A stretch of DNA of 64,000 nt, from NCBI GenBank assembly GCA_036867785.1, contig CP145410.1, positions 1,736,001 through 1,800,000 of the forward strand, written 5' to 3'. This stretch comes from Plasmodiophora brassicae (lineage: Eukaryota). Both the position numbers and the translations under genes were made by a program. The number at the start of each line of letters is the position of its first letter. The stretch's first letter is position 1. Of the stretch, positions 6,017 to 59,020 are shown piece after piece. Under the pieces are notes generated by a model. The model saw only the letters and a program-made list of their open reading frames with translations. It had not been told where the DNA came from and ran no database searches.

Positions 6017-7284
6017 CCTAAAGGGAATTTGAAAATCCCGTTACCAGCGAGCTCGCCAAAGCCGGTGAGATTGCAACCATGATTGGGACGGCAATCTTAG
6101 ATCTGACACTCACATCCCAACAGGGTACCCAAGTCACCCTGCGTCGAGTGGAATGTCTAGTTTCCAGAGATGACTTGAGCGTTAACGCCGTCCTCATTGG
6201 CCGACATGAGCTCGACATTCTCGGCATCAACCCCGATGGCATTCTCGAGGACAAGTACTCCAACAGTACTGACATGATCGAACTTGTGTGTACGTACGAA
6301 CACCTACGTACTGCAACCACTGGCAAACGAAACGTTGTCGTGTGGAGACTCCAAAGAATTTGGTAAGTCAACCCGATCCTGATGATGACTGCTTTGTCGA
6401 TGATTGTAGGAGACTTCGATCAATCGGAACTCGGCAAAGCAATTGACAGCATGGCGGATCGCGCCGTTTAGGAAGGACTACCACCTGAACGAGTTACGTC
6501 TTATCGTATATGATCACCATGATGTATGGAGGGTCAAACTGCATTGGATACCGCCAGTGAAGGTAACCCCGATGAAATTGCATTTGAAGCAAGATGCTCA
6601 GCCTGTAGCATGTGGAGCTACCCTAATACCGTGTCATAACATTTGGTACCTCCGATCCCAGCTCCATCTGCTACACGTTGAGCATCTTGCAATTCTATCG
6701 GGGTTACCTTCCCTGGCGGTATCCGGTGCAGTCTGACCCTCCATACATCATGATGATCATATACGATACGACATAACTCATTCTTGTGTTCAGGTGGTAG
6801 TCCTTCCTCAACAGCGCGATCCACCATGCTGTCAATTGCTTTGTCGACTTCCGATTTATCGAAGTTCTCCTACCTCACCAATAGTTTTTGTACGAACATT
6901 GAGCAAGTCGCTCCTACATCGACAAAGTAATAGTCATCATTCGGATCGGGTTGACTTACCAAATTCTTTAGAGTCTCCACACGACAACGTTTCGTTTGCC
7001 AGTGGTTGCAGTACGTAGGTCTTCGTACGTATACACAAGTTCGATCATGTCAGTACTGTTGGAGTACTTGTCCTCGAGAATGCCATCGGGGTTGATGCCG
7101 AGAATGTCGAGCTCACGTCGGCCAATGAGGACGACGTTAACGCTCAAGCCATCTCTGGAAATTAGACATTCCACTCGACGCAGGGTGACTTGGGTACCCT
7201 GTACGATTGCCGTTCCAACTATGGTTGCAATCTCATCGGCTTTGGCGAGCCCGCTGGTAATAGGATTTCCAAATTTCCTGTAGG
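6017..7284. repeat. Inverted repeat, arms about 6017-6619 and 6660-7284, loop about 40 nt
   Basis: Arms are reverse complements at roughly 85-90% identity by eye, with indels; 7293-7386 is an extra direct copy of about 6910-7000. Confidence 0.95.
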
Positions 7285-7386
7285 TACGATTTGCTAGTCT
7301 CCTACATCGACAAATTAAAGTAGTCATCACCCGGACCGGGTTCACTTACCAAATTCTTTGGCGTCTCCACACGACGTTTCGTTGCC
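6017..7386. mobile_element. Degenerate Ty3/Gypsy-like pol fragment (protease C-terminus and linker to RT), present in both orientations
   Basis: VLIGRHELDILGI resembles the retropepsin ILGRD.L motif; DHHDVWRVKL..PP.KVTPMKLHLKQDAQPV resembles the pre-RT linker; frameshifts and stops present. Confidence 0.65.
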
Positions 7387-8294
7387 ACAACTCACGACGA
7401 CTAGACAAACAATACGAGACTACTGAGCCCAGCAAGTAAGTGTATCAATACATCGGATCGGTGGACGTTTCTGACTTTGGGCGGAGGCCGTGTTCTACTT
7501 GTGGGTATGGCCAGGTGCCGGTACTTGAGGGTGCGCGTGTCTTGACTCCTCCCTCGACCGGACACGGTCGTCGCACGCAGCAAACCCTTTGTTTGAGGTC
7601 TTCGAACTAGACCCGCCCGAGAGCTTTGGTGGATATGTCGGCGAGGTTGTCGCCAGTTCGCACGTACGAAACGCGCAAGCTTGTGCAGCTTCAAAGTGGC
7701 ATGGAATTGCGGACAAAGCTAGCCGTCTTCCTGACGACCATCCTGGAACGCATACGTATGCCACACGTGCTAGGAGAGTCGACGCAGCTGATCACAACGA
7801 TCGAGGGAATGGACGTCACACTGGACGACGTCCTATAATGTGAGCCGACGTAAACTCTACACGATGATGTGGTCATCCCGTACAATTCCTATCCGATCAC
7901 AACCGCGTTTCGCCTCCTCATCCGGAAACTTAACGAAGCTGAACTTGCAAGCCTATCCCACGCATGACTCCTTCTCAGCAATGCTCTGTCGAGCAACCGA
8001 ATTTACCGGTCATGCGAACAGATCCTCTCGTTATGAGTGGAATTACTGTCACAACGACCCACGCATAGCGGACGTGTCCAACGGCTGATACCTTCCTGGT
8101 GCTACTGTTGGGTCACGTGCTCGACCCGAACTTATTGAAGTACATCGTGTTCGCGAGCCAGCTGCTTCTTCGGCAAATTAAGGGAGCAACCACGAATAGA
8201 CGTACTTCAACTTCGCACGACCTGCAGGACGTGCGAAGTGGGTGACACAGTTGGTGGAATCGCAATCGTATACCCGCCACGACAGCTCCGCGTC

Positions 8295-11200
8295 TCAGGC
8301 GCGCTGCAGACCCGCAGACCTCGCGAGATGCGCACCATCGGAGACATCGATATTGTTCTCCGCCAGGCGTTTCTCCAGGAACGCCACGTACACCACGAGA
8401 TTATCGTAGAGCGATGTGGCCATCTTGCCGCCGCCGGTGATCTCGTTCGACGATTCACGTACAGCAATAAGTATCCCCGGCGTATGCTTCAGATCCGATT
8501 TCGTATGCAGTTTCAGGTTGCCTTTGCCTTGCCAGATCAGCGTCGCCTTGGGGAAGTAGATCGCCGTCGTAAACGAGATCGAACACCAAAGAATGCCGAG
8601 GATGAACAGCGTCGTGTAGATTTGCGGTTGCGCCGGAACGAGCATTGAGATCAGCGGGAAGACGACGAAGGAGAAGATCGCCCCGTACAACCCCAAGGTC
8701 ATATGCGTCGACTCATTGAAGGTACTCTGTACGGAAACGTCTCAGAATAAGACAATACAGAGCGTCAAAGACATCCGCGCTACCGGGGCATGCCGAGTCT
8801 GGAACGCGACGAAAGCGCAGACGAACAACGGAAGAAATATCGCGACGGCAACAGGCACGGCCGTGGCCGCATGGATAGGACATGCCACGGTCTGGGTCAC
8901 TAACGAACCGGTCACCGTCACCTCCAGGTACGGAACGGGAGGATCGGCGACGGTAACGACCGTTAACATCAACGTCGCCAGGATCAGGTCGATCGTGACC
9001 GGAAGCAATAGCTTCCGATTCGGCAGCCGAACCACTTTCATGGAGTCGGTGCAGAACACCTTCCAGATGCGGTACGCTTTGGCAGCAATCACGGACAGCA
9101 GGGCGACGATCGACAGCGTCGGGAGCCACCAGCGCAACGCACAGACCGTTGTCGATGCCGGCACCAGGTACGGGATGCACGACAGGAAGCAGGCGCACAG
9201 CGACACCAGCGTGTACAGGTTGAACGCGTACGACGACGCCTTGATAATGGCATCGTCGCGATGTCGGTACACCATGCCCAGTAGCATCAGCGCACCGACC
9301 GCACCCAGCAACGCCACCGCCCAGGCGATCGCCACAATCGTCGCATTGGCCGGCGACGTCACCGTGACGTACCTGTACGTCACGACCTTATCGAGCAGGG
9401 CTTGCCCGTCGAACTGGACTCGGCACGGAGCGGTCGCCGATCCGATCTGCTTCGTCTCCGGATCGTACTGCACGCCACCGACGTGCGTGATCCACCACTG
9501 GTCCCCGGGACGGATCTCAGAGACGGCGCTGTGCCCGGCGCGTGGCCCGCACCCCGCGCCATACGTCATTGGCACGGCGACCCACTCCCGGGAAATGATC
9601 AGGTACACGTACGTCGACATCGGTATCGATGCATCCGTTGTGCGTCCGCCTTGGACGACGAGCACGTTCCGGCCGCTGATAGTGACGACAACGACCGTGA
9701 ACTGCGTCAATGCAATTGGCATGGGCGGCAGCGCCGTCCACTGCCCGCTGTTCAGGTCGAGGACCCAGGCATCGCGCAATGCATTGCCGTTCCACTCGCC
9801 GCCGAGCACGTACCACGATCGGTCCCCAACCAGGACGCTGCGGTGACGGTTCCGCACCGGTGGCGATCCCTTGACCGGGTCGGGCAACGTCTGGAGTTGT
9901 TGCCAGGCGGCGGACGGCGGCACTTTGTTCGGCGTCCACGCGCCCGACAGGTTCAGGTACCAGATGTCGCCGAAAAACTGGTACAAGCCACGGCCGCCCA
10001 TCGTATAGAACATGGGCGCGCCGACGTTGTTCGTGACCGCGCATGCTGAACCCCAACGTTGTCCAGGGCCGGCAGCATCCGGCGGTACGTTCAGCGACTG
10101 CCAGTGCAGGTACAGGTCGGCGAATCCGCGCCCGTTCAGTAACAGGTTGACCTGGCCGGACACGGTCATGGTCGTCGGGTCGTTGCCGCCGTACTGCACA
10201 GCCAGCGTCGCCGACCCATCCGCCGACCTGGTCGACGCCACGCACGATTCCGCCAGCGCTGCCGGCCCCATGCCCGTGACGTTCATCAGCGTGGACGACG
10301 ATTCCGGTGACCAGTTGTCCCCCAGCACTATGTGATCACGGGGAGGTGTCATCAACCTCGAATGGATCAAGCGTGCGCAGTTCCCTGCCGGCCAATCTGC
10401 GTACCATCGAAAGACCAGATGCGGTGGGCATCGCCGAACTGGTAGATGTAGGATCCCCAGGCGTTGCTGACGTTGACGGCCGCGCACGTCGAGGCGGGGT
10501 CCGGGGCGCGGCCGTACAGCGTCACGGGCATCATGGCGTTGACGTGGGTCAGGTCGCGGGCCAGCCAGTAGTTCCCGTCCAGGGGCAACGTCAGTGCCCC
10601 AGTCGCCAGGTCGCTGATCGCCTTCGACTGGATCGTCGCGAACGATGCCGGCACGTGCGAGCACGCGTCATGGCAAGGCGAAAGACCAACGCCGCCGTTC
10701 GAAGCGTCGAAAAACGCGTTCGTCCCGCCTTGGAATGTCCCGGCCAGCACCGACTTCAACGTCACGTAGATCGACACGTCTACCTTCTTCAGCGCGGTCC
10801 CTGCGGTCTTTACGAATCAGTTTGGGGGCATTCTCGTGATTGTCTGTTGATACTCACCCAAGACGCGGGATTTCAAAGTGCTATTGGCTGCGTGTACCAT
10901 TCGGGAGTCAGCCACCATTTTCATTGAATGACCACGCGAACGGACCGAAGGTAGAGATGTAATAGTCGGCGTCGACTCCGACAACAAGAGCGTTCGGGTT
11001 CGCGATGGCTGTGTACTGGTCGACAAGGGCCCCAGCTTCGCCGCCCACCCTACGGTAGTTTGGGAACATGAGCGCCGACAGTACATAATACAGGGTCTTC
11101 GACCAGGGTACCCACCCGTAAATAATGTCGGCGTTGTCGTTGGCGAACATTCGCCCTAATGGTTCCAGGTACGGCCCGCCCGAGAAATCGAACATGTATT

Positions 11201-11892
11201 GCTCCAGGATGATACAGCTCGGACACGTCTAAGGATAGAGCTTATAGCCATGAGTAATAGTGCACTATCCGCCCAGGTACCTGTCGGACGCCGAGCTTGA
11301 ATCCATTGCAGTATCCGCGTACAGGAGGGACCGGGATGCCGCCGGCACTGGCCACGACTTTCGTCTGCGTCACCAATCCGGCCAGTAATCCGGCGAGGTA
11401 CCCGGCCTGCTCCTGACGAAACAAAAGTCCCTGGGCGTTTCTCGGAATCGCAGTCCCCGGAGGAACGTCGTCAACAATGACGAGGGCCACACCGGGCGTC
11501 TGTAGTTACGGTCAGGCACTAACGAATACGACGAAACCGTGTGGGCCGACGTTGGCGTATGCAGCGGATAAGGCTTGGATCAGCGGTTCCGCAATGAAGC
11601 TGGCGAAGATGAAGAAATTGCAATCGGTGACACCCGGTTGCACTTCCCAGGGGACGAACACTTCGCCGTTACCCACTCGGGTCTGTTCACCCGTGTCCAG
11701 GATGATGACTCTGTGCTTGAACCTGGACGCGTCGTTGACCTCGGCGGCGACGCGCGCCATGCCGTCCAGGACGCCTTCCATGAACCCACCATCCATGATG
11801 ACGTTCTGGTGGCTCACGAAGCACGCCGACACGGGCGCCGCTCCACTAGCGGGCGCCGCGGCGACGGCGACTACGACGACCAGGACTAGCAT
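8295..11892 (-). CDS. Class C-type GPCR, copy 2: signal peptide + BMP domain + kelch + 7TM (tandem paralogue)
   Basis: Signal MLVLVVVVAVAAAPASGA; same motifs as copy 1; central region nearly identical at offset 7052. Confidence 0.85.
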
Positions 11893-12238
11893 CGCGGGGT
11901 CGTCGTCGTCGACCAGATCTGGCGAACGGCCGCCGACCGACGCCCCCCGCCTGTTACCCGCGCATCCCCGATCCGAACTGCAGTGGCGTCGTCGTCTGTG
12001 ATGGGGCGCATCGCCCCGTGGGTCCCGCCCGCCTCCCCAATCTACAGCGCTCAGTGCGGGGCCGCTGGCCAGCCACCACGCGCCCCCCAAAAAATCACCT
12101 GACCGACCTCGATCATCATCGTCATGCCCTCGCATTGTATTATTGTATACAGTCGGAAGACGGCAGAGCGCGTTTGGCGCGTAATAACGTTACCGGGCCG
12201 ACGCCGCCGTCATGATGAATACGTAAATTATTTACCAT

Positions 12239-12239
12239 T

Positions 12240-12269
<30 letters not shown>
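12239..12269 (+). repeat. (GTC)10 microsatellite immediately before the predicted ATG at 12270
   Basis: Direct trinucleotide run in the sequence. Confidence 0.9.
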
Positions 12270-12270
<1 letters not shown>

Positions 12271-15216
12271 TGAGCAGGAGGTAAGGGGAGGGCGGTGCCC
12301 AGGGTGTGCGTGCGTGACCGGGGGATGGTGTGGCCAGGAGCGCGTCGTTCGACCAGCGGTCGTTCTTCACGGCGCTCAGGGACGTCGTGGCGGCGGCGCC
12401 CGTCGTCCGCGGCACGTTCGTCGACCTGCCGTCCGTTGACGCCGTCTTCGACGGGTCGATCTCGGCGTCCCGCATACGTGGCCCGGCGCGCGCCTACCGA
12501 CAGGTCGCCGCGCGATGCATGCGACTCGTCGGCGCCGCCATCATCCTCGTCCGGGATGACGTGAAAGGATCCGCCCAGCGCATCGGTATGCCTCGTCGTG
12601 ACGTTTCTACCGCGTTTAACGAATTGCGACAGATTTCACCGGGTCAGGCTTGAAAAGGTACCGGAAGCGTTGCTCGCCCTGTCGCCCAGCGTGACGAACC
12701 TGTCAATAGCCGCCGATTTCGGGTTGGGTTGTGGTCGGCCGTGTTCGCCGGTTCCATCCTGCCGGGGCGCAACGGTGCCGAGGCGGGCCCCACGCCGCGA
12801 ATACCAGGCGACGAGTTCGCCAAGGCCATGCAGGCCTGCTCGGTCGCCAAGGAACTCATGCACGCGTTCGACACGACGCTGTCGACCTCGGCCGTCAATG
12901 ACGACGAAAGCAGCGAGACAATGACGATCTGCGACCGACGAAGGAACGGACACGTTCAGGGCGGGAAACAAATGGTACGCTGCCTCCATCGTTGGAGTGG
13001 CCGGGCGCCTGATCCTCCATATAGGTCACTTGCCTATCATTGTGCGAATACGCGCAGACGCACGAGACGGACGTCTGCTCCCCAGGGCATCGCGTATCAC
13101 TCCAGACGATTCTCGGCGCGGAAATGCTGACACTGAGGACCGCGTCCCGTGATTCCTCCCTGTTCAGCTTCGACCGTATGGCACCGGTGATGGTGTCGTG
13201 GGTGACAGGACAATGAATTTCTGTGTCTGTGGTCAGCGCCTTTCGCCGACGTCACACGGAACGTCACGTCGGACCTGATCGACATGATCACGAATTGCAG
13301 GCTCGTCTGCTCTCCGCGCTACTTTATCCGCCTCATCCTACATCTCTGCGAGCTTCGAAGCCAGGCGCTGACGTCCCTTGAATTCAATGTCCGCCTGCAC
13401 CTTCCCAATGTGAGTACCCAAGCGGACCAGAACGCTATCCAGTAACGTGTCCGTTTCCACAGGCCCCGTCACGATCGAACGACAGATGTGCCGCCACACG
13501 GTTGCTGGTTTCAATCGTCCACGAAGGGCAGTGCCTAGTCCAGGTGAAATCCAACCTGGAATCGTTTCTCGCCGGCGGATGCGTTAACGAGCTCTCATCG
13601 AATATCAGCGTCCCTGGGCGCATGTCGGCGTACGCCGATTTCGTGAGGCAGCGCCTTGGCCACGCGGCCTGCGTTGCACTTCGAGCTGGTGACCGCGCTT
13701 TCAAATGGGACGCGCTGCTCCCTGTCCTGAAGCGGTGCCATGAAGTCGACGACGTCAGGTTCGTCGCGGAAGCCCTGTGCTACATGGGTTTCGTCGTCTC
13801 CACCGGCAAGGCGGACCATTATCGAATGACATCCGACGAGGAGCAACGCACGATTTATGATGGGCGCTTCCAGGACATCGTTCGTCTCGAGGACCTCCGA
13901 TGCTTTGTCGACTGGGTGCCACTGCTCTGCCCACTAACGGACGCCGGGCGACGAGCCATCGACAGTAACGGCGGCCGTGCCAGCGTTAATGTCTCGAAGC
14001 TCGCCGGGCTGCTGGAGCAGCACGTCAAGATCGGCGATTACAGGATAGGGCCACATCGGTACAGGAACGTGTTCCTGGCTGACGCTGCGGTTGAGATCCT
14101 GATGCTGAACCGCGTCGCGAAGAACCCAACGCACGCGACCGCCATCCTGACCGTCATGCTGAACGCGCGGGCGTTCGTCCGGGTGCCTCGGCCGGCCGGT
14201 GACGAGATCTCGCGGTTCGATTCAGGTCGAGCGCTGTATCGCCTGGCGTCCCACGAGTACAGAGGCATCATCACGCCCGCGCAATTCAAGCAGATGATTG
14301 ACCTCGCCTTCATCGGTAACGATTGTGGCTCGCTGGACGCCCGTCCGCTGATGCTGAATGCCCAGCTGGTAATGCGGAGAATGTGACCGTCCGACATCCC
14401 GATGAGAACCCGGCGATGGCCGCCACCTGCTCGGTCGACTTTCCCGCCGTTCTCGACCTGATGTACGCTCACCTGAACTGCTGCGCCGACCAGCACGCGC
14501 TCAATGATCTCGTCGAGTTCACTGGATCGGCGTTCGCGTCGCTGATGATGACGCACGTCGTCTGTGCCGACGTCCCATGCTGCGAAATGCTCGGCGATGT
14601 CCTTCTCGGCGCCGGCGTCATCGTCGATCTCAACAAGATCGTTCGTATTCGGTGTTCCTGCCCGCGGCTCGGCCGCTGACCTGTTTGCGTCAGGCGAACG
14701 ACCACCCGGCGTTCCGGGCAGGGGCAAATTACACGTATGGCCTGAAGCCGCGGCCGATGTGCGAACAGACCCAGAAACCGGCCACATCGGAATTCGTCGC
14801 CCAGATTCGTACGTATGGCCTCGCGGTCGCATACCCTCGGTCTGAAGTAGGGGGCGTTCTACAGAATCGCTATCAAGTATCGAGTCGGTCGGGACCCTGG
14901 TCAGGAGGATGCACGATTGTGTTCCGATGCGCCACTCCGGTGTGTTCGACCGGAAGGAATTCTTCCGAGCGGCCGACGCCGTGGAATTCTTTATCAAGTA
15001 GGTCCCGTCAAACCACGGTTCCGCCTCAATTGCTGCTCATACGTGCGAGTATGCAGGCACAACATTGCCAGTACGGATTCGGAAGCGGTCAAGATCGGGC
15101 AACTTCTTGAACTCACAGGGGCGATTGAACCGTTAACGCCTGGCAAGTCCTTCCATGGGAACACCAAGTTTTCATTCTCCGGGGAGTTCCCCCAGCATTG
15201 CTCGGATGGAGGATGA
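12270..15216 (+). CDS. Multi-exon protein with 3-4 tandem DEP-like domains
   Basis: ATG AGC AGG AG|GTAAG..CCAG joins to SASFDQR. DEP-like segments: HRYRNVFLADAAVEILM..HATAILTVMLNARAF..FDSGRALYRL; FTGSAFASLMM..LGDVLLGAGVI..FRAGANY; FFRAADAVEFF..EAVKIGQLLELTGAI..F. Confidence 0.65.
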
Positions 15217-15236
15217 TGTGTTAATGAACGTCTCGT

Positions 15237-15385
15237 TTCGCCCATCCGGTGATCAGCCATTGCCCGCGCGGGCACGCTGATCGGGTTACTCATCGTGCCA
15301 CCACTTCCCGGATACGTCACGGTGTCTGGTGCCGCTCAGGAAGCGTTCGTTGCCAGCCTTGGTGCGTTCAACGCCCAGTCGCTGG
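15237..15385 (+). pseudogene. Orphan fragment of the secreted-protein head domain encoded at 21946 and 22944
   Basis: tcagccattgcc..ctgatcgggttactcatcgtgccaccacttcccggatac..gttgccagccttggtgcgttcaacgcccagtcg matches about 22230-22376. Confidence 0.8.
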
Positions 15386-15441
15386 CGGACGCCCGACCGT
15401 TTCTGTATTCAAGGAACTATCGAGAATCGAACAACAGGTTC

Positions 15442-16932
15442 TTACTCGGTTCTGGGCGGCTGGTCGGCGAGTCGCGGATGGAGCGGCGCTGGGCATCCGC
15501 CCTGGTCGCCACGCTTCCGCCGACACCGCCGCCGGCGCCGCTCGCCGCCTTCGTTGCAACGGGGTTGATGAGGACGACGATGCCGATGAGGATCCGGGTC
15601 AATACGGTTTGGTAGAGAGGGGCCCTTTCTTTGTAGTGCAGGCGGCCCCCCGACTTCGAACGTCCCGCCGCGTTCGCTGCGCATGTCGCTCCCGGTAATA
15701 ACTGCCAGGTGGTCAACGCCGGCTTTCTTTCGCTCCTCGATGCGGCGCATGACGGACGTGTCTGCTTCGTTGACCGTTACACCATGCAGATCAACGTCGG
15801 AGATGTCCCGTCGTGCGTTGTTCCCTTCGTCAGCGGCCAGTGCGTTCTGCACCAGTTGCTGCTTAGTGCCCTGTCGTGCTCGCCGACCGTGCTGACGTCC
15901 TGCGACACGCCTGCGTTCGTCAGCTGTCGTCGTCGGAGCCGTTTGCAGCACAGGGTTCACGACACCGAGTTGTGTTGTAGGCGCCAATATGGGAGGTGAC
16001 TGTGACTCAGCGGGAACTTCAGCCGTCTGCGTTTGACCGGCATCGTCACAAAGCTGGACGACGATGCAGCCCGGGTTGGATTCGTGGTTGGTGACTACGA
16101 ACCCCTTCTCTTGCAGATGGTGTTTAATCTTGCGCCCCAGAACGGGTACACGACCTCTGCTGTTGTTACCGCGGCCAACGATAGCCGTCAAGAGCTTTGT
16201 TCGGGCTGCTTTGCACGTGTCGATGCGTTCCATGAGGTACTCGAGTGCTTCTGGAACGCTCAAGTCGTGGAGATCGATCTGATTCATCTTCCTCCGCGCA
16301 TTGTTGGCGTGGAAGAACGCGCTGGCGGCCAGAGCGTACTCCTGCTCTAATAAGCGTTGCTCGTTCTTGCGAGCATCGGACAGCCGTTTGGCAAGCGACC
16401 GGTCGTTAGCCATGAACGCTGCTTGGGACCGTTCGGAGAAGTCATCTCTTTGCTGGGTGTGGAATTGTGCTCGTTCGCGGTGACTCTCTGCCTCACGTCT
16501 GTACTCCTCTGGTGACACAGCGGGATCGTATGTTAGGCGAACGACGTGACGTCGTTCAGCGGTGGGGCATTGAGCAGCTTGCCCGGACGACAGATGGGGC
16601 TGTACAGCGGAGGATGGCAAATTCACAGATCGTAGGGCATCGTCGCTGTGTTGGGTGTGGAACTGTGCTCGTTCGCGGTGACTCTCTGCCTTACGTCTGT
16701 AGTCGTCTGGTGACACAGCGGGATCGTATGGTAGGCGAACGACGTGGCGCCGTTCAGCGGTCGGGCATTGCACAGCTTGACCGGACGATGGTCGCGTACT
16801 TTGAGCAGGTACTAGGGCATGCCGATGGCTATGGAGGCCGACAGGATGGGGACGCACAGCGGGCGATTGCATGTTCGCGTATTGCACGGCATCGATCGTA
16901 TAGTCGTCCATGCAGCCCAGAGAGTTACCCAT
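15442..16932 (-). CDS. DUF1771 + Smr domain endonuclease-like protein with a second degenerate Smr (intronless)
   Basis: YRREAESH..SQAAFMANDRSLAKRLS (DUF1771); IDLHDLSVPEAL..IVGRGNNS..NPGCIVV (Smr); second copy VDLHGVTVNEA..VITG; 198-bp internal tandem duplication. Confidence 0.85.
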   Translation of the reverse strand: MGNSLGCMDDYTIDAVQYANMQSPAVRPHPVGLHSHRHALVPAQSTRPSSGQAVQCPTAERRHVVRLPYDPAVSPDDYRRKAESHRERAQFHTQHSDDALRSVNLPSSAVQPHLSSGQAAQCPTAERRHVVRLTYDPAVSPEEYRREAESHRERAQFHTQQRDDFSERSQAAFMANDRSLAKRLSDARKNEQRLLEQEYALAASAFFHANNARRKMNQIDLHDLSVPEALEYLMERIDTCKAARTKLLTAIVGRGNNSRGRVPVLGRKIKHHLQEKGFVVTNHESNPGCIVVQLCDDAGQTQTAEVPAESQSPPILAPTTQLGVVNPVLQTAPTTTADERRRVAGRQHGRRARQGTKQQLVQNALAADEGNNARRDISDVDLHGVTVNEADTSVMRRIEERKKAGVDHLAVITGSDMRSERGGTFEVGGPPALQRKGPSLPNRIDPDPHRHRRPHQPRCNEGGERRRRRCRRKRGDQGGCPAPLHPRLADQPPRTE

Positions 16933-17057
16933 TGGACGCCGGCACTCACAACGTGAAAAGCGAACGGTGGGACGGCACTAAGCAATAGGCACCGAATGTT
17001 AACGTCCAACACGGGCGGCGCACTTCCAGCGTCGGAAAGAACCGTACGAAGGTACGG

Positions 17058-17288
17058 TACGGCTATGTCACGCAAAGAGCATCAACCGGTGGTTCGAAGC
17101 CCTCAAGCGACACACCGAATACCTCACTCGACTGGGCGTACTTCGGAGCCGTGCTCTGTAGACCGGACCGCCCAACTAGGCCGCGAGAGCAGGCGGTCCG
17201 GTTTACAGCACGACTCCGAAGTACGCCCAGTCGAGTGAGGTGAGGGCTTCGAACCACCGGTTGATGCTCTTCGCGTCGCATAGCCGTA
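17058..17288. repeat. About 231-nt fold-back hairpin (about 100-bp stem, one ~15-nt bulge, ~19-nt loop)
   Basis: tacggctatg..gaagccctca pairs with tgagggcttc..catagccgta; cctcactcgactgggcgtacttcggag pairs with ctccgaagtacgcccagtcgagtgagg. Confidence 0.95.
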
Positions 17289-17289
17289 G

Positions 17290-19680
17290 TTCAGAGGCCT
17301 TGGCCGCCTTGTCGCTATGCTGGCAATGCGTGCTGCGTCGACAGCGCTGTTGCCGTCTAGCGCGCAGTTCCGATTGCTGATGCGCGTATTCGTCGACCGC
17401 TTGGTCTTCACGGAGTCCGGAAGTTCGGGCCAGCCACGGGTTGCCGACGCGCGCATGTCTGGTCGCCGGTCAGCGAGCCCAGGTGCGCGTTAAAGTCGCC
17501 GATGACATCCCGGCCCTCGTTGGCCTGTTCCAGGGCGCCATTGGGTCGCCCGACCTGTTCAACGTGCTGATCGACGACCTGCCCAAGGAGCTGGTCGACA
17601 AGTTCGGCGACAAGTTCGGCGATCGCTGCCCGCAGCTGGCCAGCATGCCGATGCCGTGCCAGCTGTACGCCGACGACACGACGCTGCACGCGTTCGACGA
17701 GGAGACGGCGCAGGAGATGGCGGACCACTGCCAGGCGTACGCTGAACGCCACCAGATGCAGTGGAACGCGGCAAAGTCGATCGTGTCGCGACCGGCGGAC
17801 CGCCCCAGATCGCCCTCCTCGGTCATGGAGCGGCCGGCGATGACAATGCCCCGCGTCTTCGGCCGGTCCGCCGGTCGCGACACGATCGACTTGTCGGCAT
17901 TCCATTGCATCTGGTGGCGCTCGGCGTACGCCTGGCAATGGTCCGCCATCTCCTGCGCCATGCTCTCGTCGAACGCGTGCAGCGTCGTGTCGTCAGCGTA
18001 CAACTGACACGGCATCGGCTCGTCGGCGAGCCTCGGGCAGCGATCGCCGAACTTGTCGACCAGCTCCCTCGGCAGGTCGTCGATGAGCACGTTAAACAGG
18101 TCGGGCGACCCGATAGCACCCTGGAACAGGCCCACAAGGGCCGGAATGCGACGCGATCGCTGGCCGTCCATGGTAATGATGAAGCCGCAGTCGTCGAATA
18201 GCGCCTGGATGACGGCGACGATCACGAGCGGCACACCGCGACCGATCAGCTTGTCGTAGACGAGGCGACGGCGCGCCGAGTCGTAGGCCTTGCGCATGTC
18301 GAGCAGGATCTCGGTCAACGGGCGCTTCGCGTGGGCGTAGTACGACGTCAGCTCGTCGGCACTGTCATCGCCGGCCGCGCCATGACCGAGGAGGGCGACC
18401 TGGGCAAGACGAACCGCCTGCTGGGCGTCGTCATGAAGCAGGGGCGCCTACAGCACGCGGAGCAGCTACGCGACCGCATGGCCAGGGCGGAGTCGGCCAT
18501 GGTCGGCATCGCCAAGTCGGGCGGGTTCGCCACCAACTAACTGCCTGTCACTGGTCCGCCAGGCGCGCGCGCCTGGGTAAGGTCGCGCGCCGAGTTCGGC
18601 ATGTCGTTCTGTCGGCACACAGCCCCGTCTCTCGCCAAGTTCGACTCGCTCCAGCGGAGCATGTGCGTTCTCTTCTTCGGCGGGCGCCGCGTGCGCCGGG
18701 GCAACATTCTGGTGATGCGGTACGCTGGCATTGCGCCCGGGCAGGCACGCCAGGCCAGGATTCGCACGAGTTTCGTCGTGAAGCGGATCGAGCGTGTCGA
18801 GCAGGTCAAGGACGGTGAGCCGGTCCCGTTCCTCGCCAAGGTCACCCAGTGGGCGTTGCAGCCGCGGCCAGCAATGTCGGCACGCAGGAAGCCGTACCAA
18901 AGCCGCCTCAGTTACAGTGTAGTGATGAGGCCGGGTTGCAGCAGGTCGACGACGACGACGAGCACGACAACGGCGCAGGCATCGATCGGGACGGCGGCCG
19001 GGATGTGCGCGCCAACGATCAGGACGGCGCGCGTGACGCGCAAGCGGCCCGACCGGTCGGATCCGGTAGGGACCTGGCGGGAACGCGCCCCTGTCGATCG
19101 ACGCAGTCATCCGGCATCCTGCACCAAGGCCACCGTCAGCAAGCAAGGCAAGCCGAGGCACGTGGCGCGACATACCTGCTGGCAAGGGCGATCGCACTGG
19201 ATGTCGTCGTCAGATGCGTCGCCGCGGCGGGATCGACGTACGCGCCTGGCAATCGCGGGCTCTTAAGAACGAGTCCTGGGCGTCGTTGGGTCGACAGGCA
19301 GACATCGACCTGCCGACGATGCTGGGCAGCTTCTGGTCGAATACGCGCTCGCAGCCAGCGGATCCTGTTGTGGACTGTTACGTGAATCACCGGGCGAATG
19401 ACACGATTCATGGAAGGCGACAATGTCTCCGCAAGTTCCGCCGGATCGTGCACCCGTGTACGTGACAGAACCTGCCATCAGGCGCAAACGTATCGTTGCT
19501 CGTCGAATTCCCACAATCGATGTCGCTGCCCATACTTCATATCTGCACCGTCGACGTCGTTGCTGCACGGGAACCAGATTATCGCGACGAAGCTAGGTTC
19601 GATCGACCGACAGACGAATGCTGGATCGAATGGGATCTTTACTGGCCAGATCAGGCGAACAGGTGCCTGCGCGCGTAGTC
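17290..19680. mobile_element. Scrambled non-LTR (LINE) retrotransposon remnant with APE endonuclease and RT fragments on both strands
   Basis: Minus strand VIGDFNAHLG at about 17475-17506 (APE motif); RT motifs LLDMRKAYDS, GLFQGAIGSPDLFN and LYADD, the latter two on both strands; plus-strand post-RT continuation NRLLGV..SRAEFG with a stop at 18538. Confidence 0.9.
17506..18148. repeat. Inverted repeat of the RT core, arms about 17506-17805 and 17861-18148
   Basis: The same RT segment is encoded on + and - strands; the loop 17805-17860 also pairs with 18358-18403. Confidence 0.95.
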
Positions 19681-19699
19681 ACTGGTTGAGTCGACAATA

Positions 19700-21945: not shown

Positions 21946-22713
21946 ATGCGCCTGTTCTTGCTGATCGTTGCTATTGCTGCCTCATGTGCTGTGGGCAACC
22001 CAGGCCGGTGCCCGCTGGATGGCACCCCGTGCCTGTACACGGTGGCGGATTTGCAATCGTCACCGCTGGGCGTGCCCTGGAATACGACGTTCTACCTCGG
22101 GTCCAGACCATACAATGTGTCGCAGATGCAGGGCATTCTGCAGACGCCCAGTATCGGAGGCGACCGCCTGCAGGCGCTAGCGCAGCAGGAGATCACCACG
22201 TTGCTGAACGTGTACCGCGGCGCAGACTGCTCGCCCATTCGGTCAGCCATTGCCAGCGCGGACGCGTTGATCGGGTCGCTCGTCGTACCACCACTTCCCG
22301 GGTACAGTACGCTGACGTCTGGAGCCGCTCTAGAAGCGGTCGTTGCCAGCCTTCGTGCGTTCAACGCCCAGTCGCCGTGCACGAACGCCTCCACAGTACT
22401 GTCACCTAAGCGGACCCCAGCACCAACAACGCAAACGATGGCACCCACTCCTGCACCGACACCACCGCCAACACCCGCACCGACACCAGCACCTACACCA
22501 CAGCCGACGCTTGCACCCACTCCTCGACCGACTCCTGCGCCTACACCCCAACCAACACCCGCGCCTACGCCACCACGAATCCCTGCACCAAAGACATTAG
22601 CCACCCCCAGTCTACATCCAGCACCGACACCCCATCCGACTCCAGCGCCTACCAGCTCCCTGCTATGCCGCATCTTTGGCCGGGCATGGTGCCTACGAAT
22701 TGCCCGTCCTTAA
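21946..22713 (+). CDS. Secreted protein: Cys-flanked head domain + short Pro/Thr stalk
   Basis: Signal [17 protein letters not shown]; head [39 protein letters not shown] repeats. Confidence 0.8.
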
Positions 22714-54108: not shown

Positions 54109-54158
54109 CGTATGCAGAAATATAAAATTGCACAGGAACGAAACGTGCCCTATGTTGT

Positions 54159-56499: not shown

Positions 56500-57722
56500 G
56501 GGCGCCTTATAATGTCACCCGGGTGCAGCGGCCAGCCCCCCGGTCACCCGCCCGCCACCCTAGTAACGACCTGGCCGACAGCCATACCCACCACCTTCAG
56601 TCCCATATAGAACGGATGCATAATAACGACCTGGCCGACAACCATATGAAACGGACGGTATGCGACGTTTGGTGTAATATGAAACGGACAGTGTTGCGGA
56701 TTTCAGTGCCATATGAAAACGGACGATATTGCGAATTTCGGTGTCATATGAAACGAACGACGTTGCGGAATTCACTCTAATAAGAAACGGATATTGCAAA
56801 TTTCGGTGTCATATGAAACGCACCATGGATTTTCGAGCAGGCCAACGTAGCTGGTCCGGTCGGACGCACGCCAAATAGGGAAGATTGGTGCGGAAGCACA
56901 TAGCACGACAGACAGGTGACACCAGTCAGTCCGAGCAGCATTTGACGTAGCATCAGTTCAAGCGACAGGGCATGACGTACGTACCAGTCCGAGCAGCGGT
57001 GTGTGACGCATCACCAGTGCCTGCAGGTGATGTCACGCGTCATGTCGACCAACGTCGACGACTACGTGACACGTGCAAGTGACCGGTGTGTGTCCAGTCA
57101 TAATTCCCGCGCAGCATTTTCGGTGTCGTCACTCGTCACGTCTGCACACCGCGGCGGGGAAAAGACGCCGTCAGTCGTCAGATGGAGTGCAACGATAGAG
57201 ACAGCGTATGGAGGCGACAAGCGGACGAGGACTCGGAAGACTCGCGTCCTCATCTAGCAGTGACGATGATATTGATGAAGTTGTCACGGCCGGCTTGACG
57301 CTCAGCGAGCAAGTGCTCAACCCGCGGCCAAAGGTGGCAGCCAAGCGCGGATGGGGTGGCGCTCGACCTGGACGGGCGCCGAACGAAAACCACAGGCGAC
57401 TGTTGTATGCCCAGCTACTCTTTGATGATTACTGGGGCCCTGATCCGGTTTATGATGCCAATCGTTTTTCGACGGACGTTCCGAATGCCGAAGGCGCTTT
57501 TCGATGAGATTCACGAACGCGTGACCCGGTTCGACGAATACTTCCTGAAGAAAAATGATGCTCTTGGGGTAAGGACTGTTCTGTTCTACCTGTCGGTTGC
57601 GTTTATAACCGAATCTTCCTTAGGTTCCAGGGTTTACGTCCTTGCAGAAAGTCGTCTGTGCGGTGCGCATGCTCACTCCAGGTGATTCAGCACATGAGCT
57701 GGACGACAAATTCAGGTTCAGC
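56500..57722 (+). mobile_element. Truncated PIF/Harbinger-type DNA transposon: putative left end + frameshifted transposase 5' part (57208-57722)
   Basis: LFDDYWGPDPVY, frameshift, FRRTFRMPKALFDEI..DEYFLKKNDALG, intron, GFTSLQKVVCAVRML..ELDD; this is the Plant_tran-type N-terminus and the DDE core is missing. Confidence 0.85.
56604..56824 (+). repeat. Tandem 32-35-bp repeats with core (C/A)ATATGAAACG(G)AC, probable transposon subterminal repeats
   Basis: Core at about 56643, 56676, 56710, 56745, 56778 and 56810 (variant at 56604); 17-bp direct repeat taacgacctggccgaca at 56564 and 56624. Confidence 0.85.
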
Positions 57723-58136
57723 ACGGTGTCATGCAGCTGGAGAACCGTGTGGCATAGGCGCTCGACCGTGTCCTTCAGCGAGAAGACGTCCACGGTCAGT
57801 CGGGCCGCCACCTCCGGCTGAGCGTCTCGCAGCATGCTGTCCGGGATCGCGGTGATGTTCACTCTGAGAAACTCGACCAGGATCTCCCCTGACCATCCCA
57901 CGATGAGTCGTGCTTGCGATGAGCTCGGCTTACCGAGGTCAACTCTGAGGGGATGGTCAGAGGAGATCCTGGTCGAGTGTCTCAAGGTGAACATCACCGC
58001 GATCCCGGACAGCATGCTGCGAGACGCTCAGCCGGAGGAGGCGGCCCGACTGACCGTGGACGTCTTCTCACTGAAGGACACGGTCGAGCGCCTATGCCAC
58101 ACGGTTCTCCAGCTGCATGACACCGTGCTGTACCTG
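57713..58136. repeat. Inverted repeat, 187-bp arms (57713-57899 and 57950-58136), 50-nt loop
   Basis: Near-perfect reverse complement with a few substitutions. Confidence 0.97.
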
Positions 58137-58141
58137 CAGCG

Positions 58142-59020
58142 AGAGAACCGCCAACAGGCCCTCGCAATGGCTCAAATGCAGAGCGAGATCCTAGAGGTGC
58201 TGATCGATGTCTGACAGGCCTACTGCAGCGGCGCAATCGACCCACGATATCCCCGCTTCTTATGGCATGATGCGTCCTCGTTCGGGAGCGTGAGACGTTT
58301 CATGGTACGTGCAAGCAGAAGACAGACTACTACGCGCTCGCGTTCGACGACAACCGGCGCTTGGTTGCAATTTGGCGCGATGGCCGGAGAATCTCCTCTC
58401 TCCACTGGAATGTGGGAGGGCGTCGCCACCTGAAAAGCGGGCCCAGATGCCGTTTTCAGCAGCGCGTCAGCGTATCTGAATCGAACGTTCGATACGCTGG
58501 CTGACAGATACGAACACTTTGCTTCGGTTTCGTCTAGCCTGGGCGACCTCGATGGTCACGTGCATCGACGAACCAGGTCCCACTCTCTGTCGTCGATGCA
58601 CGTGACCACCGAGGTCGCCCAGGCTAGGCGAAACCGACGCAAGGTGTTCGTATCTGTCAGCCAGCGTATCGAACATTCGGTTCAGATACGCTGACGCGCT
58701 GCTGGAAACGGCATCTGGGCCCGCTTTTCAGGTGGCGACGCCCTCCCACATTCCAATGGAGAAAGGAGATTCCGGCCATCGCGCCAAACTGCAACCAACA
58801 AGCGCCGGTTGTCGTCGAACGCGAGCACGTTGTAGTCTGTCGTCTGCCTGCACGTACCATGAAACGTCTCACGCTCCCGAACGAGGACGCATCATGCCAT
58901 AAGAAGCGGGGATATCGTGAGTCGATTGCGCCGCTGCAGTAGGCCTGTCAGACATCGATCAGCACCTCTAGGATCTCGCTCTGCATTTGAGCCATTGCGA
59001 GGGCCTGTTGGCGGTTCTCT
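58142..59020. repeat. Inverted repeat, about 430-bp arms (58142-58571 and 58590-59020), 18-nt loop
   Basis: Near-perfect reverse complement; about 15 substitutions and 2 small indels counted by eye. Confidence 0.97.

What the first reader, a model, noticed from the sequence alone, without database searches (positions are those of the whole stretch)
6017..59020. All three transposon remnants carry short-loop fold-backs: candidate hairpin-RNA anti-TE system
Seen: five long inverted repeats with 18-55 nt loops at 6017-7284, 17058-17288, 17506-18148, 57713-58136 and 58142-59020. All lie in or adjoin the three TE remnants (Gypsy, LINE, Harbinger), and I saw none in the roughly 27 host genes. The arms carry substitutions and indels, which argues against amplification or assembly chimeras. 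Two sit directly upstream of a host gene start (126 bp from the Smr ATG, 48 bp from the LRR ATG). Established: transcribed inverted repeats of TE sequence make Dicer substrates that silence cognate elements in trans (maize Mu killer). Inference: this genome repeatedly makes or retains such loci for unrelated TE classes, possibly transcribed divergently from host promoters, as a dispersed TE memory.
Basis: partly seen in the sequence, partly recalled or inferred. Interest (0 to 1): 0.85.

Follow-up and report, generated by a model that had tools for sequence, protein, structure and literature searches.

The report
Fold-back palindromes in clubroot-pathogen transposon relics
Five real hairpin-forming inverted duplications sit in dead transposon fragments of what appears to be the clubroot pathogen Plasmodiophora brassicae; they look like accidents of DNA copying that could feed the organism's unusual RNA-silencing pathway, but that role is not shown.

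Summary
The five inverted repeats are real, at the stated coordinates and far beyond chance (189-1351 bits against at most 46 in 10 controls). An independent short-read DNA contig bridges the centre of the largest one without a difference, so at least that one is not an assembly artefact. The genome is Plasmodiophora brassicae or a close relative.

The transposon labels need correcting. The arms of 57713-59020 come from a Crypton-like element, not the neighbouring Harbinger-like remnant.

The origins differ:
- 57713-59020 is an exact permuted inverted dimer, A'|ABC|C'B'.
- 17058-17288 extends a native terminal hairpin of a multicopy element.
- The arms of 17506-18148 come from two LINE copies that diverged under selection (22 synonymous to 11 non-synonymous differences).

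The other arms decay neutrally and look single-copy.

A 2026 paper reports that P. brassicae has Argonautes and a Drosha-like nuclease but no Dicer or RdRP, that a palindromic region yields 21-nt RNAs, and that siRNA precursors are unexplained. Hairpin RNA from these loci is therefore plausible, but I could not test it. A selected "TE memory" is not supported.

Verdict: new member of a known kind, moderate interest.

The parts
6001..7295 (.). P1: palindrome of an internal gag/protease-to-early-RT fragment of an LTR-type retroelement. The left arm is sense on + and the right arm is sense on -. The centre lies at about 6583-6687.
   Evidence: 1310 bits. tblastn of P0001 places 6022-6550(+) at aa 332-505 and 7345-6735(-) at aa 310-502. 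X9 DNA contig 6322-6803 has 0 differences. Arm differences are 3 synonymous to 19 non-synonymous. No Pfam hit, so the 'Gypsy' label is unverified.
7299..7387 (-). A third, partial copy of part of P1's right arm. It is a direct repeat of 6911-7001 and an inverted repeat of 6321-6395. It is unexplained.
   Evidence: 86% and 86.7% identity, pair I10.
17058..17288 (.). P2: palindrome with a 19-nt loop at 17171-17189. The left part, 17058-17155, is unique to this locus. It looks like a snap-back extension of a native terminal stem-loop.
   Evidence: 189 bits. Contigs from other genomic copies diverge at 17154/17156 (loose ends in X9 DNA and X15 RNA).
17156..17505 (-). Multicopy element that ends at 17156 in a stem-loop of about 17 bp (17156-17208). 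It carries a weak LINE-endonuclease-like motif on the minus strand near 17420-17506.
   Evidence: Summed word depth in bin 17142-17608 is 803.5 against 256.5 (X4) and 583 against 90 (X9). tblastn of P0007 aa 169-197 gives E = 0.087. No Pfam hit.
17506..17805 (+). P3 left arm: LINE reverse-transcriptase fragment, sense on +.
   Evidence: RVT_1 E = 3e-09, profile positions 113-191. It differs from the right arm by 22 synonymous and 11 non-synonymous changes.
17806..17860 (-). P3 'loop'. By my reading it is native RT sequence that continues the right arm on the minus strand.
   Evidence: The minus-strand ORF 17470-18447 reads through it. A 47-nt inverted copy lies at 18358-18404 (94%; pair I12). 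The reading as RT is my inference from recalled RT motifs.
17861..18351 (-). P3 right arm (17861-18148) and its continuation: LINE reverse transcriptase, sense on -.
   Evidence: RVT_1 E = 1.7e-13, profile positions 57-192. tblastn of P0007 aa 615-761. RNA contigs X17 17869-18157 and X15 18048-19000.
18358..18404 (+). Inverted 47-nt copy of the P3 loop. It resembles the small duplication at a twin-priming-type junction.
   Evidence: pair I12 (94% complementary).
57200..57712 (+). Harbinger/PIF-like transposase N-terminal remnant, cut off at 57712. It has no fold-back of its own.
   Evidence: Atlas neighbours include 'Nuclease HARBI1 family protein' (0.91) and a Plant_tran cluster (0.88). No Pfam hit and no homologue. 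This is a lead only.
57713..58136 (.). P4 = A' (57713-57899), a 50-nt loop, then A (57950-58136). The arms encode aa 425-496 of a Crypton-like protein. A and the loop are the original; A' is the copy.
   Evidence: 582 bits. tblastn of P0002 places 57882-58205(+) at aa 412-519 and 57940-57713(-) at aa 425-496. Arm differences are 6 synonymous to 13 non-synonymous.
58137..58141 (+). Five single-copy bases inside the continuous coding sequence that joins A to B. They are the only part of unit ABC without an inverted copy.
   Evidence: Sequence read. P0002 is collinear across them.
58142..59020 (.). P5 = BC (58142-58571), an 18-nt loop, then C'B' (58590-59020). B encodes aa 497-541 and C encodes aa 242-284 of the Crypton-like protein.
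   Evidence: 1351 bits. tblastn. Arm differences are 3 synonymous to 4 non-synonymous.
15442..16932 (-). Host Smr-domain gene. Its mRNA contig reaches 17087, inside P2's left arm.
   Evidence: Pfam Smr E = 6.6e-15. X17 RNA contig 15548-17087.

Best explanation
These are genuine, mostly old, apparently single-copy inverted structures made from internal pieces of several unrelated transposon lineages. The lineages are an LTR-type gag/protease fragment, LINE reverse transcriptase, a multicopy element with a terminal stem-loop, and a Crypton-like recombinase element. The genome is compact and is that of Plasmodiophora brassicae or a near relative.

They are by-products of how free ends of transposon DNA get copied and joined. 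They are not products of one dedicated system.

**Self-copies (inferred).** A free 3' end snaps back on its own strand and is extended.
- P2 extends a native terminal hairpin.
- P4 and P5 together have the exact layout A'|ABC|C'B'. This is the layout expected if a hairpin-capped (closed linear) fragment ABC were nicked once, unfolded and integrated. It is equally expected if a second fold-back stopped at the foot of the first hairpin.
- P1 is a simple symmetric fold-back.

**Juxtaposed copies.** P3 joins two diverged LINE copies in opposite orientation at nearly the same RT coordinate, probably through a twin-priming-like template switch.

**Why they persist (inferred).** They lie in the little DNA of this gene-dense genome that is not under constraint. 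Since formation, the arms of P1, P4 and P5 have differed as neutral sequence would.

**Likely consequence (inferred, not shown).** Any transcript that crosses one would fold into a long hairpin. In an organism without RdRP or Dicer, such a hairpin is a ready substrate for the Drosha-like nuclease PbDRL and the two AGOs. These loci probably contribute some 21-nt siRNAs, as an incidental rather than a selected function.
For: **Real and non-random**
- 189-1351 bits against at most 46.4 in 10 controls.
- Independent DNA: X9 contig 6322-6803 with 0 differences.

**Organism**
- P0001 is named PBRA_008995 [Plasmodiophora brassicae].
- Introns are 47-77 nt and GC is about 0.6.

**P4 and P5**
- P0002 (699 aa) is collinear across the P4/P5 border (aa 412-519 at 57882-58205, 84% identity).
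- Unit ABC is therefore contiguous. A' plus C'B' make exactly one inverted copy, lacking only 5 nt.
- The loops of P4 and P5 carry native coding sequence that continues one arm.

**P2**
- Contigs from other copies end at 17154/17156, the foot of the inner stem. Summed word depth there is 3-6 times that of neighbouring genes.

**Neutral decay**
- Synonymous to non-synonymous differences are 3:19 in P1, 6:13 in P4 and 3:4 in P5. The simulation gave P = 0.97, 0.19 and 0.45.

**P3**
- 22 synonymous to 11 non-synonymous differences, with 21 of 33 at third codon positions. None of 5000 simulations reached 22 synonymous.
- A 47-nt inverted copy of the loop lies at 18358-18404.

**Hairpin potential**
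- 86-96% of bases are paired, with 2-7 helices of 21 bp or more per palindrome.

**RNA**
- Contigs cover P3's right arm (X17 17869-18157, 0 differences) and position 17849 in its loop (depth 3.5). X15 covers 18048-19000.

**Literature**
- PMC13547706: AGO1 and AGO2, PbDRL, no Dicer or RdRP, a palindromic region giving 21-nt RNAs, and transposons as the second largest class of sRNA loci.
Against: - No small-RNA reads were available, and no RNA contig was shown to bridge both arms of any palindrome. The RNA consequence is therefore inference.
- P4 and P5 were not checked against independent reads.
- The snap-back model does not explain the third partial copy at 7299-7387. It also does not explain why P1's arm identity varies from 38% to 100% per 50 columns.
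- P2's native-hairpin reading rests on two loose ends and on summed word depth. The tool warns that this depth is no copy number.
- Finding five such structures at all three transposon-bearing loci of one 64-kb window is a high density for pure accident. Selective retention is not excluded.
- The Crypton-like and Harbinger-like labels rest on language-model neighbours and motifs read by eye. Pfam and PDB gave no hits.
Confidence: 0.6

Rival explanations
1. The genome makes or preferentially retains inverted duplications of transposon fragments as heritable hairpin-RNA genes. Their siRNAs silence cognate elements in trans, as a selected and dispersed 'TE memory'.
For: - All 12 long inverted pairs lie in transposon-derived DNA, at each of the three transposon-bearing loci.
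- At least four unrelated transposon lineages are involved.
- The organism lacks RdRP, so hairpins are one of the few routes to dsRNA. A palindromic locus gives 21-nt RNAs, and the origin of precursors is an open question (PMC13547706).
- In T. brucei all 7 large inverted repeats gave siRNAs (PMC3447711, passages read).
- In a genome this compact, relics that persist may be the useful ones.
Against: - The arms of P1, P4 and P5 differ as neutral sequence would. P1's inner arms and P3 are down to 80-83% identity.
- Summed word depth over P1 and P3 is near that of single-copy genes, and the nearest cognates found are 61-84% identical as protein. Perfect 21-nt targets in trans are therefore not in evidence.
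- Origins are heterogeneous. P3 is two juxtaposed LINE copies.
- The Harbinger-like remnant and the high-copy repeat at 5838-5950 carry no fold-back.
- No transcript spanning both arms was shown.
Confidence: 0.15
2. Cis-acting structures. P2 lies in the Smr gene's 5' region and P5 lies 48 nt upstream of an ATG. They might act as DNA or 5'-UTR RNA hairpins that modulate the neighbouring host genes.
For: - The Smr mRNA contig (X17, 15548-17087) reaches 30 nt into P2's left arm.
- P5 ends at 59020 and an ATG lies at 59069.
Against: - Only two of the five lie next to gene starts.
- Contigs cannot show a transcript start.
- No relatives were available to test conservation.
- P1 lies past a gene's 3' end. 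An X17 RNA contig begins at 7428 with library-adapter sequence before it.
Confidence: 0.07
3. All five arose from independent insertions of transposon copies in opposite orientation (random nesting).
For: P3's arms carry a purifying-selection signature (22 synonymous to 11 non-synonymous; 0 of 5000 simulations reached this). They therefore come from two different LINE copies.
Against: - In P1, P4 and P5 both arms stop at the same internal coordinate of the element, and the arm differences look neutral.
- A' plus C'B' make exactly one inverted copy of ABC.
- P2's left part exists only at this locus.
- Two independent insertions would not share internal break points.
Confidence: 0.05
4. Assembly or amplification chimeras, such as fold-back long reads or products of multiple-displacement amplification.
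For: Short-loop palindromes are the typical shape of such artefacts. P4 and P5 were not checked against independent reads.
Against: - Arms differ by 6-20%, with many substitutions.
- A short-read contig from another study bridges P1's centre with 0 differences.
- Both DNA runs cover P3's loop and P2's edge.
- 20 runs from 8 studies hold at least half of the sampled words of 8600-18500.
Confidence: 0.03
5. They are mobile fold-back elements or MITE-like non-autonomous transposons.
For: Long terminal inverted repeats with a short middle are the anatomy of Foldback-type elements.
Against: - The arms are internal coding fragments of other transposons.
- Summed word depth over P1 and P3 is near that of single-copy genes.
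- I saw no target-site duplication at the P4/P5 borders.
- The 33-nt core of P2 occurs once in the window and not at all in the metagenome contig collection.
Confidence: 0.03

Closest known systems
[quoted passage not shown] 2G legend; abstract, sections 2.1, 2.2 and 4.5 and the Discussion read)
   Same: It is probably the same organism. It is a long palindromic locus that folds into a hairpin and yields 21-nt RNAs through a Drosha-like nuclease and AGOs, without RdRP. The paper's ShortStack fold size of 1000 nt would accommodate P2-P5.
   Different: I could not see whether that region is transposon-derived, or whether any of the five loci here is among the paper's 234 miRNA loci or its siRNA loci. 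The supplementary tables are closed.
Long inverted repeats that give siRNAs in Trypanosoma brucei (PMC3447711; passages read)
   Same: A protist in which large genomic inverted repeats (422 bp to 10 kb) are siRNA sources alongside retroposons. All 7 gave small RNAs.
   Different: Those arms are 99-100% identical, and the authors suspect selection. Here the arms are 80-94% identical and appear to decay neutrally. Those repeats are not described as transposon fragments in the passages I read.
Mu killer of maize, hpRNA loci of Drosophila, and palindromic siRNA loci of the RdRP-less yeast Saccharomyces castellii (recalled, not read here)
   Same: An inverted duplication of a transposon or gene fragment is transcribed into a long hairpin. 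The hairpin is diced into siRNAs that act in trans.
   Different: In those cases the hairpin transcript, the small RNAs and the silencing effect were all shown. None of the three is shown here, and no close target copies are in evidence.
Snap-back (fold-back) inverted duplications and palindromes formed at broken DNA ends, as described in yeast and Tetrahymena (recalled); scan note e1-558053 on a single-copy palindrome in Cyanidioschyzon merolae
   Same: The arms are symmetric. The loop is native sequence continuing one arm. One arm runs on into its parent sequence and the other stops abruptly. Identity falls towards the centre.
   Different: Here there are five in 64 kb, all in transposon relics. 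One pair has the exact permuted-dimer layout A'|ABC|C'B', for which I know no description.
Twin priming of LINE-1 (recalled, not read here)
   Same: In P3 an inverted RT segment (profile 215 to 57) abuts sequence in the other orientation. A 47-nt duplication sits at the junction (18358-18404 against 17804-17850).
   Different: I could not confirm that the plus-strand sequence right of 18352 is LINE. The palindrome's left arm belongs to a second, diverged LINE copy.

Membership tests
Hairpin-RNA (inverted-repeat) endo-siRNA locus, Mu killer type | A long inverted repeat with a short loop that can give dsRNA helices of 21 bp or more | tested here: met
   86-96% of bases are paired, the longest uninterrupted helix is 30-178 bp, and each palindrome has 2-7 helices of 21 bp or more, on either strand.
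Hairpin-RNA (inverted-repeat) endo-siRNA locus, Mu killer type | One transcript that runs through both arms | tested here: inconclusive
   RNA contigs cover P3's right arm (X17 17869-18157) and position 17849 in the loop at depth 3.5. No listed record bridges both arms. The bin over P1's centre has no RNA depth in either run. Contigs cannot show strand or ends.
Hairpin-RNA (inverted-repeat) endo-siRNA locus, Mu killer type | Small RNAs of the organism's size class (21 nt) from the arms, from one genomic strand, with the loop depleted | not testable with these tools
   No small-RNA run was available. No listed holder is on record as RNA, and six are guessed to be RNA. The supplementary tables of PMC13547706 are closed.
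Hairpin-RNA (inverted-repeat) endo-siRNA locus, Mu killer type | RNAi machinery in the organism | not tested
   Taken from the literature only: PbAGO1, PbAGO2 and PbDRL are present, and Dicer and RdRP are absent (PMC13547706). The whole genome was not available.
Hairpin-RNA (inverted-repeat) endo-siRNA locus, Mu killer type | Cognate target copies that share near-perfect 21-mers with the arms | tested here: inconclusive
   Summed word depth over P1's centre and P3 is 0.8-1.6 times that of neighbouring genes (the tool warns that this depth is no copy number). The nearest proteins are 61% (P0001) and 84% (P0002) identical. No DNA of other copies was seen.
Snap-back (fold-back) inverted duplication | Both arms stop at the same internal coordinate of the parent sequence | tested here: met
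   P1's arms end at aa 505 and 502 of P0001. P4 turns at about aa 412-425 and P5 at about aa 281-284 of P0002. In P3 the two arms end at RVT_1 positions 191 and 192.
Snap-back (fold-back) inverted duplication | The arms were identical at birth, so later differences should look neutral | tested here: met
   Met for P1 (3 synonymous to 19 non-synonymous), P4 (6:13) and P5 (3:4). Not met for P3 (22:11; 0 of 5000 simulations reached this). P2 has no known reading frame and was not tested.
Snap-back (fold-back) inverted duplication | The loop is native sequence continuing one arm, and that arm runs on into parent sequence while the other arm ends abruptly | tested here: met
   P4 and P5. P3. P2. 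Not resolved for P1, where both arms end together.
Foldback or MITE-type mobile element | Several dispersed copies with target-site duplications and non-coding arms | tested here: not met
   Summed word depth over P1 and P3 is near that of single-copy genes. The arms are coding fragments. The P2 core occurs once in the window and not at all in the metagenome contigs. I saw no target-site duplication.
Crypton-type tyrosine-recombinase transposon (source of the P4/P5 arms) | A tyrosine-recombinase catalytic domain, often with a GCR1_C-type DNA-binding domain | tested here: inconclusive
   The Atlas neighbours of P0002 carry NDC10_II (77% and 55% of members), GCR1_C (56% and 71%), Phage_integrase (13-36%), DUF3435 and DUF3504, at scores of 0.92-0.98. 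Pfam and PDB gave no hit. H-x-x-R and Y motifs were read by eye only.
Harbinger/PIF transposon (left flank of P4) | A DDE_Tnp_4 or Plant_tran transposase | tested here: inconclusive
   Only an N-terminal fragment is present. The Atlas gives 'Nuclease HARBI1 family' at 0.91 and a Plant_tran cluster at 0.88. No Pfam hit and no homologue.
LINE twin-priming inversion (P3 locus) | An inverted 5' segment abutting a non-inverted 3' segment of the same element, with a small duplication or deletion at the junction | tested here: inconclusive
   The inverted RT segment and the 47-nt junction duplication are present. The non-inverted 3' segment right of 18352 could not be confirmed as LINE.

The most novel reading that the evidence does not exclude
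P. brassicae has AGOs but no RdRP and no Dicer. In this reading it routinely converts loose transposon DNA (cDNA, excised or broken copies) into hairpin-capped fragments. These integrate as palindromes and then serve as heritable, RdRP-independent dsRNA genes. That would be an acquisition step for transposon immunity, analogous in logic to piRNA-cluster capture. The exact A'|ABC|C'B' layout of P4 and P5 would be the footprint of the hairpin-capped intermediate. It would also answer the published open question of where this organism's siRNA precursors come from.
Probability: 0.1. Interest if true: 0.8.

Novelty: new member of a known kind. Interest (0 to 1): 0.45.

Why it matters
A 2026 study found that P. 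brassicae, a major crop pathogen and a little-studied rhizarian, runs RNAi with two Argonautes and a Drosha-like enzyme but without Dicer or RdRP. The authors state that the origin of its siRNA precursors is unclear.

Transposon-derived palindromes like these five are concrete candidate precursors. They can be checked at once against small-RNA libraries that already exist.

Separately, the exact permuted inverted dimer at 57713-59020 and the extended native hairpin at 17058-17288 are unusually clean footprints of how palindromes arise from free DNA ends.

If the loci prove silent, they remain ordinary repair and retrotransposition scars in junk DNA.

Tried and rejected
- **Whole genome.** None is held, so I could run no genome-wide inverted-repeat enrichment test and no search for AGO or Drosha genes.
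- **RNA runs.** No listed holder is on record as RNA. Two runs guessed to be RNA proved to be RNA by their spliced joints. They are contigs and cannot show small RNAs, strand or transcript ends.
- **Parts without RNA cover.** The bin over P1's centre (6401-6867) has no RNA depth in X15 or X17. This is no evidence either way.
- **Pfam.** No hit for the arm ORFs of P1, P4 and P5, for P0001 or P0002, or for ORFs of the 17124-17992, 18213-19209 and 5408-5899 regions.
- **PDB.** The sequence search with P0002 gave 0 hits at E up to 1.
- **Longer homologues.** The search with the Harbinger-like ORF found none. The search with the RT ORF found only two distant hits of 29-30% identity.
- **Other copies of P2.** The 33-nt core of P2 was not found in metagenome contigs.
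- **Other RNA genes.** Rfam at gathering thresholds gave 0 matches in the window, and there are no tRNA genes.
- **My first model for P4 and P5, rejected.** I supposed that the two ends of one break each folded back and were then joined. P0002 is collinear across the border, so the border is not a repair junction.
- **My first reading of L4, rejected.** I read L4 as Harbinger coding sequence. The arms match the Crypton-like P0002.
- **An orientation rule, dropped.** I considered that the sense strand always runs into the centre. P4 runs the other way.
- **First codon comparison for P4, discarded.** It used a wrong frame and was redone.

Full report
**Observation**

The repeat finder reported 12 inverted pairs of 40 nt or more, and all 12 lie in three loci. 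Self-blastn merges them into five palindromes:
- P1, 6017-7284
- P2, 17058-17288
- P3, 17506-18148, 82.8% identity over 661 columns
- P4, 57713-58136, 91.1% identity
- P5, 58142-59020, 94.2% identity

A more sensitive local scan scored these five at 189-1351 bits. The remaining 9 of 14 local hits reached at most 46.4 bits. Ten Markov-chain controls gave 1-9 hits each, with maxima of 33.7-46.4 bits. The structures are therefore far beyond chance, and no comparable one lies in the genes.

The arms differ by substitutions and gaps:

| Palindrome | Mismatches | Gap columns |
|---|---|---|
| P1 | 49 | 91 |
| P2 | 5 | 20 |
| P3 | 39 | 16 |
| P4 | 15 | 3 |
| P5 | 21 | 6 |

In P4 and P5 identity falls steadily towards the centre. 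In P1 and P3 it is uneven, and the innermost bin is low (0.57 and 0.54). As RNA, each palindrome would pair 86-96% of its bases and hold 2-7 uninterrupted helices of 21 bp or more.

**Not an artefact**

Of the 24 runs listed, 20 runs from 8 studies hold at least half of the sampled words of 8600-18500. I laid two DNA and two RNA runs on 5000-19000.
- A 482-nt contig of X9, from a different study than the possible source, covers 6322-6803 with no difference. It bridges P1's centre.
- X4 and X9 contigs cross P2's left border (12283-17104).
- Both DNA runs cover position 17849 in P3's loop.
- P4 and P5 were outside the stretch laid and remain unchecked.

X15 and X17 are RNA. They carry 47-77-nt GT..AG or CT..AC joints that the DNA runs lack.

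**Organism**

The best relative of P1's arm ORF is 'hypothetical protein PBRA_008995 [Plasmodiophora brassicae]' (61% identity). GC is near 0.6, introns are very short and some run labels read 'plant metagenome'. I therefore take the genome to be P. brassicae or a close relative. No whole genome was held.

**What the arms are**

*P1.* tblastn of P0001 places 6022-6550(+) at aa 332-505 and 7345-6735(-) at aa 310-502. Read by eye, P0001 has a CCHC knuckle and a protease-like stretch, but it has no Pfam hit. An LTR-type gag/protease-to-RT fragment is likely. 'Gypsy' is unverified.

*P3.* Both arms are RVT_1. The left arm is sense on + (profile positions 113-191) and the right arm is sense on - (profile positions 57-192).

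*P4 and P5.* An exhaustive HMMER search with the ORF that spans their border found P0002 (699 aa, 84% identity, E = 4.8e-49; 5 hits in all at E up to 0.001). Its Atlas neighbours carry NDC10_II, GCR1_C, Phage_integrase, DUF3435 and DUF3504 (scores 0.92-0.98). From memory, that set of domains belongs to Crypton-type tyrosine-recombinase transposons. Pfam and PDB gave nothing.

*The Harbinger-like piece.* It lies at about 57200-57712, left of P4 (Atlas 'Nuclease HARBI1 family' at 0.91; no Pfam hit and no homologue). It has no fold-back of its own.

**Anatomy and origin of P4 and P5**

P0002 maps as follows:

| Window | Strand | P0002 residues |
|---|---|---|
| 57940-57713 | - | 425-496 |
| 57882-58205 | + | 412-519 |
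| 58207-58275 | +, after a frameshift | 519-541 |
| 58458-58619 | + | 242-295 |
| 58706-58584 | - | 241-281 |
| 58955-58887 | - | 519-541 |
| 59019-58957 | - | 499-519 |

The protein is collinear across the 5 nt that separate P4 from P5. The middle unit ABC (57950-58571) is therefore one contiguous fragment, and the whole reads A' | A B C | C' B'.

A' and C'B' together make exactly one inverted copy of ABC, lacking only 58137-58141. Both loops carry native coding sequence that continues the middle unit.

I inferred two mechanisms that give this layout:
- A fragment with both ends closed as hairpins was nicked once, unfolded, made double-stranded and integrated.
- A second fold-back synthesis stopped at the foot of the first hairpin.

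My earlier idea, two folded-back break ends joined together, is refuted by the collinearity.

**Origin of P2**

Summed word depth in bin 17142-17608 is 3.1 times (X4) and 6.5 times (X9) that of neighbouring genes. Contigs from elsewhere in the genome match rightwards from 17154/17156 but carry other sequence to the left (loose ends in X9 and X15). That point is the foot of an inner stem of about 17 bp around the 19-nt loop.

I infer that a multicopy element ends there in a native stem-loop. At this locus its 3' end snapped back and was extended by about 100 nt (17058-17155). The tool warns that this depth is no copy number, so this remains an inference.

**Test of self-copy against two copies**

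I compared the arms codon by codon in the transposon's reading frame. As a control I placed the same substitution types at random positions, 5000 times.

| Palindrome | Synonymous | Non-synonymous | Simulation P |
|---|---|---|---|
| P1 | 3 | 19 | 0.97 |
| P4 | 6 | 13 | 0.19 |
| P5 | 3 | 4 | 0.45 |
| P3 | 22 | 11 | 0 of 5000 reached 22 (mean 9.5) |

P1, P4 and P5 fit arms that were identical at birth and have decayed without constraint.

In P3, 21 of 33 differences lie at third codon positions. Its arms diverged while the reverse transcriptase was under selection, so they come from two different LINE copies.

P3's 55-nt loop reads on as RT on the minus strand (my reading from recalled RT motifs). 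A 47-nt inverted copy of it lies at 18358-18404 (94%). This resembles the junction of a twin-priming inversion. I could not confirm that the plus-strand DNA right of 18352 is LINE.

The five structures therefore do not share one origin.

**RNA**

- X17 has a 289-nt contig on 17869-18157 (P3's right arm, 0 differences, depth 11.9) and depth 3.5 at 17849 in the loop.
- X15 has a contig on 18048-19000.
- The Smr mRNA contig (X17) runs from 15548 to 17087, 30 nt into P2.
- No listed record bridges two arms. Contigs cannot show strand or ends.
- No small-RNA data could be reached.

**Literature**

*PMC13547706* (abstract, sections 2.1, 2.2 and 4.5 and the Discussion read). According to this paper:
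- 90% of P. brassicae small RNAs are 21 nt. They are phased and start with C.
- Small-RNA loci are mainly intergenic, followed by transposons.
- There are two AGOs and a Drosha-like PbDRL, but no Dicer and no RdRP.
- miRNA prediction allowed folds of 1000 nt.

Its supplementary tables, which may list these very loci, are closed.

*PMC3447711* (passages read). All 7 large inverted repeats of T. brucei give siRNAs, and their arms are 99-100% identical.

*bioRxiv 10.1101/2024.04.03.587992* (passages read). [quoted passage not shown] None of my six search terms turned up a passage on palindromes.

*Searches.* surfaced no paper describing transposon-derived palindromes in this organism.

**Verdict**

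The most likely account is that these are scars of snap-back copying, hairpin-capped fragments and LINE template switching. They are tolerated in the little unconstrained DNA of a gene-dense genome. Their transcripts would incidentally supply hairpin dsRNA to an RdRP-less RNAi pathway.

Three results argue against a selected 'TE memory', though none excludes it:
- the neutral pattern of differences between the arms;
- the mixed origins;
- the lack of evident close targets (summed word depth near that of single-copy genes; cognate proteins 61-84% identical).

The density, five structures at all three transposon-bearing loci of 64 kb, remains notable.

Noticed in passing
window 1293-4774 and 8335-11832: A 3.5-kb direct segmental duplication (87% identity over 3527 columns) flanks P1. 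Each copy holds a Kelch-repeat plus 7tm_3 receptor gene.
   Followed up: partly
window 5838-5950: A short high-copy repeat lies about 60 nt left of P1. Contig word depth at 5883 is 2302.6 (X4) and 4482.4 (X9), against about 256 and 90 over neighbouring genes. Many loose ends fall at 5795-5956. ORFs of 5408-5899 gave no Pfam hit, and there is no tRNA or Rfam match.
   Followed up: partly
all five palindromes: Each folds more stably as minus-strand RNA than as plus-strand RNA, by 22.6, 6.9, 37.1, 3.2 and 13.2 kcal/mol, with more G:U pairs. In P3 the transitions split 17 to 4. This could be a regional strand bias of mutation. It was not tested against flanking DNA.
   Followed up: partly
window 15548-17087: The Smr gene's mRNA contig (X17) extends 155 nt upstream of the ATG and 30 nt into P2's left arm. 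The gene's transcription start or 5' UTR may therefore lie inside the palindrome. Contigs cannot show a true start.
   Followed up: no
window 17157-17192: Run X9 has a contig that joins 17192 back to 17157 with 10 other letters between. This suggests a variant or another copy with a rearranged hairpin core of the multicopy element.
   Followed up: no
window 22441-25822: A 1086-aa ORF (22665-25925) is built largely of about 78 copies of a 24-nt unit (proline/threonine-type codons). GC skew reaches -0.43 and AT skew +0.63. No Pfam hit.
   Followed up: no
window 56642-56827: A tandem repeat with periods of 34 and 69 nt (2.7-5.5 copies) lies about 400 nt left of the Harbinger-like remnant.
   Followed up: no
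window 57570-57623: The apparent frameshift in the Harbinger-like ORF looks by eye like a 54-nt GT..AG intron rather than a mutation.
   Followed up: no
window 7428: An X17 RNA contig of the minus-strand receptor gene begins at 7428, with library-adapter sequence before it. This may mark the transcript's 3' end, about 130 nt right of P1. Read-through would then transcribe P1 on the minus strand.
   Followed up: no
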